From assembly GCF_009914755.1 (NCBI RefSeq), contig NC_060934.1: 64,000 nt of DNA, one strand, 5' to 3'. Source of the DNA: the human T2T-CHM13v2.0 reference genome, Homo sapiens. Below are positions 1 through 7,626 of the stretch, one piece after another. The notes beneath the pieces were generated by a model. That model was given only the letters and a program-made list of their open reading frames with translations. It ran no database searches and had not been told where the DNA came from. The translations under genes and the position numbers were made by a program. The first letter of the stretch is position 1; each line of letters starts with the position of its first letter.

Positions 1-110
1 CTTCCTTGTCTGTCCAGGAGGTTGCTGATGTTCCATCCACCCCACACACACTGTTCTGACCCCAGCTGGGCCTCAGCAGCCCCAATGCCAGCCCCCACCC
101 TTCCTTTCAG

Positions 111-267
111 CTCTCTCCGGTCTCAGCCTCAATACCCTGACCATCTTCTCTTTCTGCAAGACCCCGGAGCTGCGGACTCCCTGCCACCTACTGGTGCTGA
201 GCTTGGCTCTTGCGGACAGTGGGATCAGCCTGAATGCCCTCGTTGCAGCCACATCCAGCCTTCTCCG
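111..267 (+). CDS. RGR: RGR exon 2 (157 bp)
   Basis: Acceptor ttcctttcag|CT, donor CCG|gtacca. Translates (A)LSGLSLNTLTIFSFCKTPELRTPCHLLVLSLALADSGISLNALVAATSSLL(R), matching RGR opsin TM1-TM2. Confidence 0.97.
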
Positions 268-697
268 GTACCAGCCCCCTCCCCAGTCCACAGGCTCTGG
301 GGTCCTGCCTGGGGCCTGACCCCTGGGCCCTGGGCAGCCAGGCCAAGGGCATTTTTACTACTTACAGAAAATTGGCCAAGGGCAGAGGGTGGGCAGGCTA
401 AAATGGGCTGAATTCCAGATTGATTCTGAAGAACGACAGCTGATTTCTGGAAGACAGGGGTTGCTGAAACCTGATGAAAGAGATGGTAGGCTGTAGAGAT
501 CAATGGTGTGGGTTCTGTAACCAAGCAACCTAGGTTTGCATTCTGGCTTCAGCATTTCTAGTTCTGGGCTTCTTCCATAAATCGGATATTATTTCCTAAC
601 TCATATAGGTGGTTGGAAGTATTTACTTCTATTATGTGTAAATAACTTAAAATAATGCTTGATACCTAGGACTCTACGTAAGTGTTTGTGAACACAA

Positions 698-811
698 ATG
701 GGGGCGTTATCACCACTACTGCACCCGTATGTATCTGGGCTCCTGGAGTGGAGGGACACCGATGCAGTGTGGAGAGGATAAGAGGCAGGGAGGGGCAGTC
801 ATAACTAGCTA
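698..811 (+). repeat. Exact 114-bp direct copy of 1535-1648 (RGR exon 3 3' end, donor and start of intron 3)
   Basis: Base-for-base identity from atgggggcgttatcacc to cataactagcta at a constant offset of 837. Confidence 0.95.
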
Positions 812-1441
812 GTGTCTAATACCTCCTTATACAAAAACCAGGGTCTTCCATCACAGCTTCAGAAGGTGTTTATAAAATTGTTTTCTGAAGCAGACTGGAC
901 ATTCTCATTCTGGTTTTGGACACTACAGACGGAGGCTGGAGCCCCCCCGGATGTGCATGCTCAGTGCTGACCAGCCTGGGGGGTCTGCATCAGTGAGAAC
1001 TCTTCCTCCCACAGAGAATTGAAGTTTCCACCTTTGCTTGCCCTTTTAGGCTGGGGAGGCCTGGGATCTCCCCTCTGACTTTGCCTTCATCTTCTGTGTG
1101 ACCTTGGCTTCAGTATCTTTGCCTCTTTGAATGTCAGTTTCCCCACCTATCAAATACAGGCATGAGCTCTCCTGTGACAGAGGGATCTGATCACGCAGAG
1201 AGAGCCTATGGCCCAACCATGGTGCAGTCAAAGTCACCCAGCCTGGAGAGTGTGCATTGGGCTCCACCCCTTCAGCCCAGTTACTTGAGCTCCAACGCCT
1301 CATAGGAAAGACACCAATATTAAGGCCCTCTTCAGAGAAGAAGGGCAGCATTCAGGAACACACACTCCAAGCTGTACTTGGCAGGTGTGGGAGGTGGAAA
1401 GGATCGGAGGAGAGGTCACTGGTGCCCAGTGTCTCCCACAG

Positions 1442-1563
1442 GCGCTGGCCCTACGGCTCGGACGGCTGCCAGGCTCACGGCTTCCAGGGCTTTGTGACAG
1501 CGTTGGCCAGCATCTGCAGCAGTGCAGCCATCGCATGGGGGCGTTATCACCACTACTGCACCC
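1442..1563 (+). CDS. RGR: RGR exon 3 (122 bp; alternative acceptor at 1430 adds 12 nt, VSHR)
   Basis: Acceptor ctcccacag|G, donor CCC|gtatgt. Translates RWPYGSDGCQAHGFQGFVTALASICSSAAIAWGRYHHYCT (TM3, with GRY in place of the (D/E)RY motif). Confidence 0.97.
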
Positions 1564-1840
1564 GTATGTATCTGGGCTCCTGGAGTGGAGGGACACCGAT
1601 GCAGTGTGGAGAGGATAAGAGGCAGGGAGGGGCAGTCATAACTAGCTACTGCTCCGTGTTTCCCAGTACAGGGAAGTGTGGGTAGGTGTGAGTGTGCATG
1701 CATAGGCACTCATTTCAGGAAAGGAGGGAGGGTGGGAGAGTGTGCAGGAGAGCTGTTGGGCCTCTCTTGCCATTACCGCAACCTTGGGCAAGTCAGGGAT
1801 CCTCTCTGAACCTTAGTCTCCTCCTCTGCGAAATGATTTT

Positions 1841-2130
1841 CTTTTTCTTTTTGAGACGGAATCGCTCTATTGCCCAGGCTGGAGTGCAGTGGTGTGACCT
1901 CGGCTCACTGCAACCTCGGCCTTCTGGTTTCAAGTGATTCTTTTGCCTCAGCCTCCTGAGTAGCTGGGACTACAGGCATGTGCCACCACACCTGGCTAAT
2001 TTTTGTATTTTTAGTAGAGATGGGGTTTCACCATATTGGCTAGGCTGGTCTTGAACTCCTGACCTCGTGATCTACCCACCTCAGCCTCCCAAAGTGCTGG
2101 GATTACAGGCGTGAGCCACCGTACCCGGCT
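1841..2130 (-). mobile_element. Alu (AluS-type)
   Basis: Antisense Alu with T-tail; TSD-like gaaatgatttt / gagatgatttt. Confidence 0.9.
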
Positions 2131-3034
2131 GAGATGATTTTAATAACCAATCTCAGTTTTATTTTGAAAATGAAATGAGATCAGGGATACAGAAAATGCC
2201 CTTGCAGACAGGCACTACTCTGCAGACAGGCGCAGAGAGGCTGTGTGTATGTGTGTGTAGCTGGGCATGTGCCCTGGCACCCCACACTTCCATGAGGCTT
2301 CATGAAAACTGTCCAGCTCTAGATTTCACAAGCTGCACTGTCAAATACCATCTTCATAATTGGCCATATCAGTGTACAAACTGCTCCATTTTTCCTTAAT
2401 TTTTTTTTTCTTAAAAGTGACTCATTTTTTAAAATGTAAACACCTGCTACAAGCTCATTCTAAACAACATCTGGGAAATCACAGGTTTAATGTTCTTATA
2501 ATTTTAATACAATTAAAATAAAAACCTGTTCACCAGAGACCATCTAGAACCCTGTTTACCACCAGGGGTACATAAACATGTTTTGGGGAGCTGTGGCTCA
2601 GCTAACCCTCCTAGCAAACCTTCAGCTCACAGCCTCGGAAGCAGAGGCACAGAGAAGTTAAGCAGCTTGCCTCGCTACTAAGGGCAGAGCCAGCACTGGG
2701 CATGACCTGGTACCTCCAAGTCCTGAGCTATGAATTTGTCCAGCACAGAGGCTGCTGTGAGGTCTATAGCCAGCACAGCCTCAAACCATGGCATGTCCTC
2801 TTTGGAATCCACAGAACTTCCCTTGCCATAGTCACATGTATAGCCCCCTTCCCTGAAAATTCACTGCCCCTCATGGGTCTCTCCTGTCATATGCCTCTCT
2901 CCAGGCCAAAATGCTGCCATCGGTCTCATCATTTTGAGTGGCGATAGGTTAGCCCTCTTGTCCACTTGGCCTCAGAGCACTTCTCCCACTCCTTACATCC
3001 CAGCCCCTGCCCCTAATGCTCCCTTGGACCATCT

Positions 3035-6984: not shown

Positions 6985-7626
6985 TGTTATCTGATGGTGC
7001 AGCGCAGCTCCAGGCTCTTGGTGTCCCGAACAAAGAATTGGATGTGACACACACAAACAGCAAAACAAATATTCATTGCTTTTGCAGCAAAAGCTTATTC
7101 AGCACAGTATTACACTCTCAGAGAGGGGAGGGTGGACCAATCTCTGCGAAGTGAGATCAGCACCAGTTTGGTGTATTTTGGGTTCTTTTATATGTTTATT
7201 TTTCTTCTCTTCCCAAGGCTGCCTAATCTCTAGCCAGCATCTGCCTTTTGATTGATAGGTGGGTTGCTTATGTTACTTTGGCCCTTGTGTGCTTGCCTGT
7301 CACCTCCATCCCATAATCTTAAGTACATGCATGATATGCAGTCCATATGCATCAGCTTTAATAAGCTTATTATCATACGGGGTCATTTTAAGGATACTTT
7401 TTCTCTCTAATGCACATGCGCATCTCTGAGGAGCTGCCCCTGACAGGTTTGGTCCAGACCTAGCTGGCCACAGGAGCTTCTTACTCACTTTTTAATCTTA
7501 TTTGTGTTTTGGTTGCTCAACTTCTGTTTCTTGTCTTGCTTCTTGCTCACTGCCTCTTCACCTTGCTTCTGCTTCTACTCATTCCGCCCTTTAACCTCCA
7601 ATTCCCTCTGCTATTCTCCTGCCTCA
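6985..7626 (-). mobile_element. Solo LTR, ERV1 (MER4-group-like), in RGR intron 5
   Basis: TG...CA termini (tgttatc ... tcctgcctca). The reverse strand starts TGAGGCAGGAGAATAG. Near-TSD ggag/agag. Confidence 0.7.

What the first reader, a model, noticed from the sequence alone, without database searches (positions are those of the whole stretch)
681..815. Exact 114-bp copy of the RGR exon 3 end and splice donor, inserted into intron 2 with a templated-insertion junction
Seen: 698-811 is identical to 1535-1648 (last 29 nt of exon 3, the CCC|gtatgt donor, and 85 nt of intron 3), 837 bp upstream. It is preceded by a perfect mini-hairpin tttgtg-aa-cacaaa (685-698). The insert is bracketed by agtgt (681-685 and 811-815). 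Removing it restores cgtaagtgtctaatac, which resembles a MIR 3' end. Established: locally templated insertions with snap-back filler are typical of polymerase-theta/MMBIR break repair. Inference: zero divergence means the event is very recent (possibly human-specific or polymorphic) or is kept identical by gene conversion. It places a decoy donor at 726/727. It offers a substrate for an 837-bp recombination deletion that would remove the exon 3 acceptor. It could also confound PCR or short-read genotyping of exon 3 in a retinal-disease candidate gene.
Basis: partly seen in the sequence, partly recalled or inferred. Interest (0 to 1): 0.8.

Follow-up and report, generated by a model that had tools for sequence, protein, structure and literature searches.

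The report
Repair scar copying RGR exon-3 end
A 130-base piece in intron 2 of the human RGR gene is an exact nearby copy of the exon 3 end and its splice site, left by DNA break repair; this is a catalogued, usually harmless kind of small duplication.

Summary
Window 698-811 matches 1535-1648 at 114 of 114 bases. These are the only two copies found in the 3.1-Gb assembly. The junction is as described: AGTGT, a 12-nt palindromic filler, the copy, then AGTGT.

It fits a known class, the "repair-mediated duplications" of Pace et al. 2009 (PMC2671141). That paper lists 824 proximal, non-tandem copies in the human genome. Their median length is 147 bp, donors lie within 5 kb, and junctions carry filler and short target duplications without poly-A. 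Four donors were partial exon/intron pieces.

A single 114-nt tract copied from 837 bp away is outside the usual polymerase-theta range of 3-30 bp. Only the filler looks polymerase-theta-like.

Zero divergence favours a recent origin but does not prove one. P(0 differences) is still 0.22 at human-chimp depth. My estimate is 0.4-0.7 that the insert is human-specific.

I found no evidence that the decoy donor is used. Every candidate pseudoexon carries stop codons. Mapping ambiguity affects only reads of 100 nt or less.

No primate or second human sequence was available, so age, polymorphism and the MIR context remain untested. This is an ordinary finding of low interest.

The parts
681..685 (+). 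Left copy of the 5-nt target-site duplication AGTGT (end of the original intron 2 sequence before the break)
   Evidence: Sequence. Control frequency of such a 5-mer repeat is 4.3%.
686..697 (+). 12-nt filler TTGTGAACACAA. It forms short inverted repeats with break-proximal bases in two registers: TTTGTG 685-690 with CACAAA 693-698, or GTGTT 682-686 with AACAC 691-695.
   Evidence: No template of 10 nt or more within 6 kb on either strand.
698..811 (+). Acceptor copy, 114 nt. 698-726 copies the last 29 nt of exon 3 and 727-811 copies the first 85 nt of intron 3. The A at 698 and the A at 811 could each belong to the copy or to the neighbouring segment.
   Evidence: 114 of 114 identical to 1535-1648. 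Only 2 places in the genome.
724..732 (+). Copied 5' splice site CCC|GTATGT (decoy donor, cut after 726)
   Evidence: same 9-mer as the real exon 3 donor, 6 of 9 matches to the textbook consensus. No RefSeq exon ends here (hub table).
811..815 (+). Right copy of the target-site duplication AGTGT. It also matches the donor's continuation ACTG at 3 of 4 bases (imperfect microhomology).
1535..1648 (+). Donor: last 29 nt of RGR exon 3, its 5' splice site and 85 nt of intron 3
   Evidence: hub annotation (exon 1442-1563).

Best explanation
This is a germline repair-mediated proximal duplication, a templated insertion left by imprecise repair of a chromosome break in RGR intron 2.

Inferred sequence of events:
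1. A break occurred at or next to AGTGT, in what was ...ACGTAAGTGT|CTAATAC....
2. Both 3' ends kept the AGTGT segment, which produced the 5-nt target duplication.
3. One end first gained a short stretch by hairpin-primed or untemplated synthesis. This is the 12-nt filler, which is an inverted repeat of the break-proximal bases.
4. That end then paired, through a single A, with the donor 837 bp downstream. The template was either the resected other end of the same break or the sister chromatid.
5. About 113 nt were copied in one tract: the exon 3 end, its donor site and 85 nt of intron 3.
6. The new strand left the template and rejoined the other end at A(G/C)TG.

The product is most likely a neutral scar. 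It is probably young: human-specific or shared with the African apes. It is probably fixed rather than polymorphic.

Shown: the anatomy and the copy number. Inferred: the order of steps, the enzymes involved, the age and the neutrality.
For: Anatomy:
- Exact 114-nt direct copy, 837 bp away, same strand, with 2 copies in the genome.
- 12-nt filler with 5-6-bp inverted repeats to the bases at the break.
- 5-nt flanking direct repeat.
- No poly-A or poly-T at either end.

Match to the class described by Pace et al. 2009 (PMC2671141; section 5 parts 1-2 and passages read):
- 824 duplications with the donor within 5 kb.
- Acceptor length: mean 162 bp, median 147 bp.
- Donor-acceptor distance peaks near 1.2 kb.
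- Filler 1-68 nt and TSD 4-21 nt.
- 0 of 39 inspected proximal cases had poly-A/T.
- 6 of 39 had a TSD and 25 of 39 had filler.
- 4 donors were 'partial exon/intron'.
- 7 human-specific cases had identical donor and acceptor.

The model of direct-repeat insertions copied from the other resected end, and inverted-repeat insertions from a hairpin, comes from PMC7165422.

Age. With Pace's branch rates and 2.2e-9 per year, the posterior is 0.71 human-specific, 0.24 shared with chimpanzee and 0.05 older. With the rate halved it is 0.39, 0.33 and 0.28. As a sanity check, the same calculation predicts 7.75 identical human-specific cases, and Pace et al. report 7.
Against: - No empty site from another primate or another human haplotype could be obtained. 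The scans found 0 matches. The target duplication, the filler boundaries and the age are therefore inferred from one haplotype.
- Exact microhomology at the two copy junctions is only 1 nt each. This is below the 2-9 nt that Pace et al. counted as microhomology.
- The filler hairpin is only modestly unusual. Such a stem occurs in 1.0% of 20-nt windows, and 13 of 200 shuffles fold as well.
- Break repair cannot be told from replicative template switching on sequence alone.
- Pace's operational criterion, an insert that interrupts an annotated transposable element, could not be tested.
Confidence: 0.75

Rival explanations
1. Replicative template switching (FoSTeS/MMBIR) without a two-ended break. 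A nascent strand stalled at ...AGTGT, made a short snap-back, jumped 837 bp ahead, copied 113 nt, and returned 5 nt behind where it left. The return created the AGTGT duplication.
For: The same anatomy fits: multiple short switches, 1-nt or imperfect microhomology at each switch, and a small duplication at the return point. Germline multi-template insertions exist at about 100 per person at 25 bp or longer (PMC8421209).
Against: The MMB-TI signature in that work is an inverted copy of a template within 100 bp. Here the main tract is direct and 837 bp away. Pace et al. attribute the matching size and distance class to SDSA. Sequence alone cannot decide between the two.
Confidence: 0.15
2. An old insertion (older than the human-orangutan split) kept identical to its donor by repeated gene conversion.
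For: The two copies are close (837 bp) and in the same orientation.
Against: Identity runs sharply to both edges, with 0 nt of flanking similarity. Conversion needs flanking homology and should leave the edges diverged. At 114 bp the tract is short for conversion (recalled knowledge, not tested). All 3 CpGs in the intronic copy are intact. Recency alone explains zero differences with P = 0.22-1 inside the human-chimpanzee time frame.
Confidence: 0.04
3. RNA-templated insertion. A fragment of unspliced RGR pre-mRNA was reverse-transcribed or used as a repair template at the break.
For: The copy has the same orientation as transcription and spans an exon-intron boundary, as an unspliced transcript would. 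Templated sequence insertion polymorphisms derived from transcripts are described (PMC5110952; only the search listing and the start of the abstract were seen).
Against: There is no poly-A, and the 5-nt TSD is short for LINE-1. In Pace et al., 0 of 39 proximal cases had poly-A/T against 17 of 29 distant ones. Proximity of the donor is what the DNA-templated class predicts. RGR is a retina/RPE gene, so germline transcripts should be scarce (recalled).
Confidence: 0.03
4. The insert has a function or a harmful effect. The decoy donor and 29 nt of exonic context could create a pseudoexon or sequester U1 and so lower RGR expression, or the repeat pair could drive 837-bp deletions.
For: The decoy donor is identical to the real one (6 of 9 to consensus). 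Three upstream AGs with 13-14 of 20 pyrimidines exist at 553, 562 and 609. A repeat-to-repeat deletion would remove the exon 3 acceptor and 93 of 122 exon nucleotides, which is a frameshift if the exon is skipped.
Against: All 3 candidate pseudoexons contain stop codons. RefSeq lists no exon in intron 2 (hub table). A retina transcriptome meta-analysis lists for RGR only an isoform skipping exons 2 and 3 in the passages seen (PMC10111803). No paper on an RGR exon 3 deletion of this kind appeared among the 15 that hold all four search terms.
Confidence: 0.03
5. Assembly artefact of this haplotype.
For: None found.
Against: The junctions have the structured anatomy of a biological repair event: filler, TSD and sharp edges. 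The raw reads could not be inspected here.
Confidence: 0.01

Closest known systems
Repair-mediated duplications (RDs), Pace, Sen, Batzer & Feschotte 2009, PLoS Genet (PMC2671141; abstract, section 5 parts 1-2 and passages read)
   Same: - Single parental copy and non-tandem arrangement.
- Donor within 5 kb on the same chromosome (837 bp here; their peak is about 1.2 kb).
- Length within range (130 bp insert; their median is 147 bp, maximum 619 bp).
- Filler (12 nt; their range 1-68), TSD (5 nt; their range 4-21) and no poly-A.
- Donors can be partial exon/intron pieces (4 of 824).
- Identical donor/acceptor pairs exist (7, all human-specific).
   Different: - Exact microhomology here is 1 nt per junction; they counted 2-9 nt.
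- Whether the insert interrupts an annotated TE, which was their detection criterion, could not be tested.
- RGR is not named in their main text (0 occurrences).
- Their Table S1 could not be opened, so this locus may or may not already be listed.
Polymerase-theta locally templated insertions (TINS), Carvajal-Garcia et al. 2020 (PMC7165422; passages read)
   Same: The 12-nt filler is an inverted repeat of break-proximal bases, as in hairpin-primed synthesis. The main tract is a direct repeat of sequence on the other side of the break, as in synthesis on the other resected end. Microhomology is minimal.
   Different: TINS are 3-30 bp, with primary tracts rarely above 10 bp and templates next to the break. 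Here there is one 114-nt tract from 837 bp away.
MMBIR-type templated insertions (MMB-TI), Osia et al. 2021 (PMC8421209; passages read)
   Same: They occur as germline variants in normal people, can use several templates, and show microhomology or 'microhomeology' at the switches.
   Different: They are defined as inverted copies of templates within 100 bp. The main tract here is direct and distant.
Templated sequence insertion polymorphisms (PMC5110952; only the listing and start of the abstract seen) and short 'doublets' (Thomas et al., as cited in Pace et al.)
   Same: Both are small non-tandem copies inserted at a break. Doublets are short local duplications with many attributes of RDs.
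   Different: TSIPs are templated from distant regions, and class 1 has LINE-1 features. Here the donor is local and there is no poly-A. The studies of small-scale duplications that Pace et al. cite alongside the doublets focused on duplicons under 100 bp.

Membership tests
Repair-mediated duplication (Pace et al. 2009) | Inserted sequence found at exactly one other place in the genome (a single parental copy) | tested here: met
   2 candidates and 2 matches in 3.117 Gb, the acceptor and the donor. The tool's counts are lower bounds.
Repair-mediated duplication (Pace et al. 2009) | Donor on the same chromosome, more than 50 bp and less than 5 kb from the acceptor (non-tandem, proximal) | tested here: met
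   Start-to-start spacing of 837 bp.
Repair-mediated duplication (Pace et al. 2009) | Insert of at least 50 bp | tested here: met
   130 bp inserted: 12 nt filler, 113-114 nt copy and a 4-5 nt duplication.
Repair-mediated duplication (Pace et al. 2009) | No poly-A/T tract of 5 bp or more at an end (not retrotransposition) | tested here: met
   The ends read TTGTGAACACAA... and ...AACTAGCTA.
Repair-mediated duplication (Pace et al. 2009) | Break-repair signatures at the junctions: filler, deletion, microhomology or TSD | tested here: met
   12-nt filler and 5-nt TSD. Controls: 1.0% for the hairpin and 4.3% for the TSD. Exact microhomology is only 1 nt.
Repair-mediated duplication (Pace et al. 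2009) | Insert interrupts one annotated transposable element (their detection criterion) | not testable with these tools
   No repeat library is held. The genome search found only the query itself. blastn found no hit below E = 0.19 and none spanning the junction (one search returned nothing). nhmmer found 0 hits at E <= 10. The MIR resemblance rests on recall only.
Repair-mediated duplication (Pace et al. 2009) | Empty orthologous site in an outgroup species | not testable with these tools
   No primate genomes are held. A 26-mer of the left flank gave 0 matches in genome contigs and 0 in viral contigs.
Polymerase-theta templated insertion (TINS) | Insert of 3-30 bp identical to flanking DNA, with primary tract rarely above 10 bp | tested here: not met
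   The main tract is 114 nt from 837 bp away, against the definition. The 12-nt filler alone would meet it.
MMBIR templated insertion (MMB-TI as searched by MMBSearch) | Inverted copy of a template within 100 bp of the insertion | tested here: not met
   Direct orientation at 837 bp, against the definition.
LINE-1-mediated insertion (retrocopy, transduction, class 1 TSIP) | Poly-A tail, longer TSD, processed (spliced) source | tested here: not met
   No poly-A. The copy contains 85 nt of intron, so the source was unspliced. The TSD is 5 nt.

The most novel reading that the evidence does not exclude
The insert is a human-specific, possibly still polymorphic allele. It places a fully competent copy of the exon 3 donor, with 29 nt of exonic context, in intron 2. 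In RPE and Muller cells this would produce a stop-containing pseudoexon (acceptor at 553, 562 or 609, donor at 726) or sequester U1. It would thereby lower functional RGR output and act as a cis-modifier of retinal phenotypes. The 114-bp repeat pair would also occasionally yield an 837-bp loss-of-function deletion that short-read pipelines miss.
Probability: 0.03. Interest if true: 0.5.

Novelty: new member of a known kind. Interest (0 to 1): 0.2.

Why it matters
The practical points are small:
- The last 29 nt of RGR exon 3 and its donor site have an exact second copy. Of the reads touching them, 12% of 100-nt reads, 28% of 75-nt reads and 37% of 50-nt reads have a second exact place. Reads of 125 nt or more have none.
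- Primers placed within 1535-1648 would also prime at 698-811.
- It is a clean, undecayed example of a proximal repair-mediated duplication that carries a splice site. Such cases are rare within the class: 4 of 824 donors were partial exon/intron, and 7 were identical human-specific pairs.
- If it proves human-specific or polymorphic, it would be a convenient marker and a natural minigene test of decoy-donor effects.

It does not open a new question.

Tried and rejected
1. MIR identity of the flanks.
- A genome search with 470-697 returned only the query itself.
- blastn of an in-silico empty site against the rest of the window returned nothing with one parameter set. With four other sets it gave no hit below E = 0.19 and none spanning the junction.
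- nhmmer gave 0 hits at E <= 10.
- The window file carries no soft-masking.
- Result: untestable here.

2. A template for the 12-nt filler. There is no match of 10 nt or more to 676-706 within the first 6 kb on either strand apart from the donor. Only 8-9-mers matched, at chance level.

3. Independent human or primate DNA. A 26-mer of the left flank gave 0 matches in genome contigs and 0 in viral contigs.

Whether this locus is already listed is open.

6. A meiotic hotspot motif near the break. CCNCCNTNNCCNC (a recalled motif) has 8 matches in the window, and the nearest is at 7123-7135, more than 6 kb away. No link.

7. Structured RNA. Rfam gave 0 matches in 1-3000.

8. Literature on this locus.
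- 48 papers held at least 3 of the 4 terms and 20 were listed.
- 15 papers held all four terms.
- 21 papers held at least 2 of the 4 terms and 15 were listed.
- None describes an RGR intron 2 insertion or an exon 3 deletion of this kind.

9. Rejected readings: segmental duplication (far too short), retrocopy (contains intron, no poly-A) and tandem duplication (837 bp apart).

Full report
OBSERVATION

Window 698-811 equals 1535-1648 at 114 of 114 positions, and no identity extends beyond either edge. The repeat finder reports the pair as 117 nt at 99%, because one mismatch (812 g against 1649 c) is followed by a shared TG. The spacing is 837 bp.

The donor is the last 29 nt of RGR exon 3. Translating 1443-1562 gives RWPYGSDGCQAHGFQGFVTALASICSSAAIAWGRYHHYCT. 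The donor then continues through the 5' splice site CCC|GTATGT and 85 nt of intron 3. The copy therefore carries the same splice site at 726|727.

The match is not chance:
- 16-mers and 20-mers of the copy occur only at these two places in the window, on both strands.
- A search of the whole 3.117-Gb assembly found 2 candidates and 2 matches, these two places. The tool says its counts are lower bounds.
- This is the only direct repeat with an exact seed of 30 nt or more within 5 kb in the 64-kb window.

ANATOMY OF THE JUNCTIONS

Read left to right, the structure is:
- target ...ACGTA-AGTGT (681-685);
- filler TTGTGAACACAA (686-697);
- an A at 698, which could belong to the filler hairpin or to the copy;
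- the copy, through ...CTAGCT;
- an A at 811, which could belong to the copy or to the target;
- GTGT (812-815), then CTAATAC....

The insert is therefore 130 bp: 12 nt of filler, 113-114 nt of copy and a 4-5-nt target-site duplication.

The donor's continuation ACTG matches the target AGTG at 3 of 4 bases. This is an imperfect microhomology at the return junction.

The filler has no template of 10 nt or more within 6 kb on either strand. It does form short inverted repeats with the bases at the break, in two registers:
- GTGTT/AACAC (682-686 with 691-695), which is the register that the DNA fold prefers, at -3.5 kcal/mol.

Each junction signature is only moderately unusual by itself:
- A stem of 6 bp or more occurs in 651 of 63,980 20-nt windows (1.0%).
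- A TSD-like 5-mer occurs at 2,753 of 63,690 control positions (4.3%).
- 13 of 200 shuffles fold at least as well.

WHAT IT IS

The literature search turned up a class that fits point by point. These are the repair-mediated duplications of Pace, Sen, Batzer and Feschotte 2009 (PMC2671141). I read the abstract, section 5 parts 1-2 and several passages.

They found 1,136 insertions of 50 bp or more that interrupt transposable elements and have one parental copy. Of these, 824 have the donor within 5 kb. For that proximal set:
- Acceptor length has mean 162 bp, median 147 bp and maximum 619 bp.
- Donor-acceptor distance peaks near 1.2 kb.
- 0 of 39 inspected cases had a poly-A/T tail.
- 25 of 39 had filler (range 1-68 nt).
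- 6 of 39 had a target-site duplication (range 4-21 nt).
- Four donors were 'partial exon/intron' pieces.

The authors assign the class to synthesis-dependent strand annealing at a double-strand break.

The RGR insert meets every criterion of this class that I could test (see the membership table). Two criteria could not be tested. One is whether the insert interrupts an annotated repeat. The other is whether outgroup species have an empty site.

HOW IT MOST LIKELY AROSE (inferred)

1. A break occurred at AGTGT in intron 2. Both 3' ends kept the 5 nt.
2. One end was first extended by a few nucleotides in a hairpin-primed or untemplated way. This is the behaviour described for polymerase theta, in which inverted-repeat insertions come from a hairpin and direct-repeat insertions come from the other resected end (PMC7165422).
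3. The end then paired through one A with the donor 837 bp downstream. The template was either the resected other end or the sister chromatid.
4. About 113 nt were copied. The strand was released and joined at A(G/C)TG.

- Polymerase-theta insertions are 3-30 bp, with primary tracts rarely above 10 bp.
- MMBIR-type insertions, as operationally defined, are inverted copies of templates within 100 bp.
- A direct 114-nt tract from 837 bp away fits the RD/SDSA class better.

Replicative template switching cannot be excluded from sequence alone. I give it 0.15.

AGE

Zero differences in 114 nt is weaker evidence than it looks. With the 2.2e-9 per year pairwise rate used by Pace et al., P(0 differences) is:
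- 0.36 at their mean human-specific divergence (0.89%);
- 0.22 at human-chimpanzee depth (1.32%);
- 0.011 at 3.96%;
- 0.0005 at 6.6%.

I weighted these by their branch rates of RD formation: 2.5, 3.1 and 11.8 per My. The posterior is 0.71 human-specific, 0.24 shared with chimpanzee and 0.05 older. If the rate is halved, it becomes 0.39, 0.33 and 0.28.

The same calculation predicts 7.75 identical human-specific RDs. Pace et al. report 7, which supports the approach.

Of 10 human-specific RDs that they genotyped in 80 people, 9 were fixed and 1 was polymorphic. Fixation is therefore the better guess for this insert.

Gene conversion is not needed to explain the identity. The sharp edges of the identity and the 3 intact CpGs argue for youth rather than homogenisation.

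None of this could be checked directly. No primate genome or second human haplotype is held, and scans of two public collections with a 26-mer of the left flank found 0 matches.

CONSEQUENCES

The decoy donor equals the real one, at 6 of 9 matches to the textbook consensus. For comparison, the five real RGR donors in the window score 4-8 of 9.

Three upstream AGs have 13-14 of 20 pyrimidines, at 553, 562 and 609. They could define pseudoexons of 174, 165 or 118 nt. All three contain stop codons in frame with exon 2.

I found no sign that any of these is used:
- RefSeq lists no exon in intron 2 (hub table).
- In the passages I saw of a retina transcriptome meta-analysis, the only novel RGR isoform skips exons 2 and 3 (PMC10111803).

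A deletion between the two repeats would remove 837 bp, including the exon 3 acceptor and 93 of the 122 exon nucleotides. At 114 bp the homology is short for homologous recombination (recalled knowledge). No report of such an allele turned up among the 15 papers holding all four search terms.

Read-mapping ambiguity over 1535-1563 depends on read length:
- 29 of 78 reads at 50 nt;
- 29 of 103 at 75 nt;
- 15 of 128 at 100 nt;
- 0 of 153 at 125 nt;
- 0 of 178 at 150 nt.

WHAT STAYS OPEN

- The MIR context is untested (searches gave nothing usable). The resemblance rests on recall only.
- The outgroup empty site is unknown.
- Presence of the insert in other human haplotypes is unknown.
RGR does not occur in their main text.

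VERDICT

This is a real and cleanly resolved feature of an ordinary kind: a young proximal repair-mediated duplication that happens to carry an exon end and its splice donor. It is a new member of a known kind, or possibly an already listed one. Interest is low.

Noticed in passing
window 1830-2141: An Alu in antisense orientation (T-rich start at 1841, masked 1828-2132 in the hub table) is flanked by an 11-nt target-site duplication: GAAATGATTTT at 1830-1840 and GAGATGATTTT at 2131-2141, 10 of 11 identical. It is a classical retrotransposition junction only about 200 bp from the donor, and it contrasts usefully with the 5-nt TSD and poly-A-less RGR insert.
   Followed up: no
window 7123-55310 (8 sites): The degenerate 13-mer CCNCCNTNNCCNC (a recalled hotspot motif) occurs 8 times, against 1.48 expected from shuffles. 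0 of 100 shuffles reach 8. Several sites lie in stretches the hub lists as masked repeats. None is within 6 kb of the insert.
   Followed up: no
window 1430 and 1442: The alternative exon 3 acceptor at 1430, 12 nt upstream of the main one, has a poor pyrimidine tract: 8 of 20, against 13 of 20 for 1442 and 13-17 of 20 for the other RGR acceptors.
   Followed up: no
RGR exons 111-267 and 1442-1563: [quoted passage not shown] It does not involve the decoy donor.
   Followed up: partly
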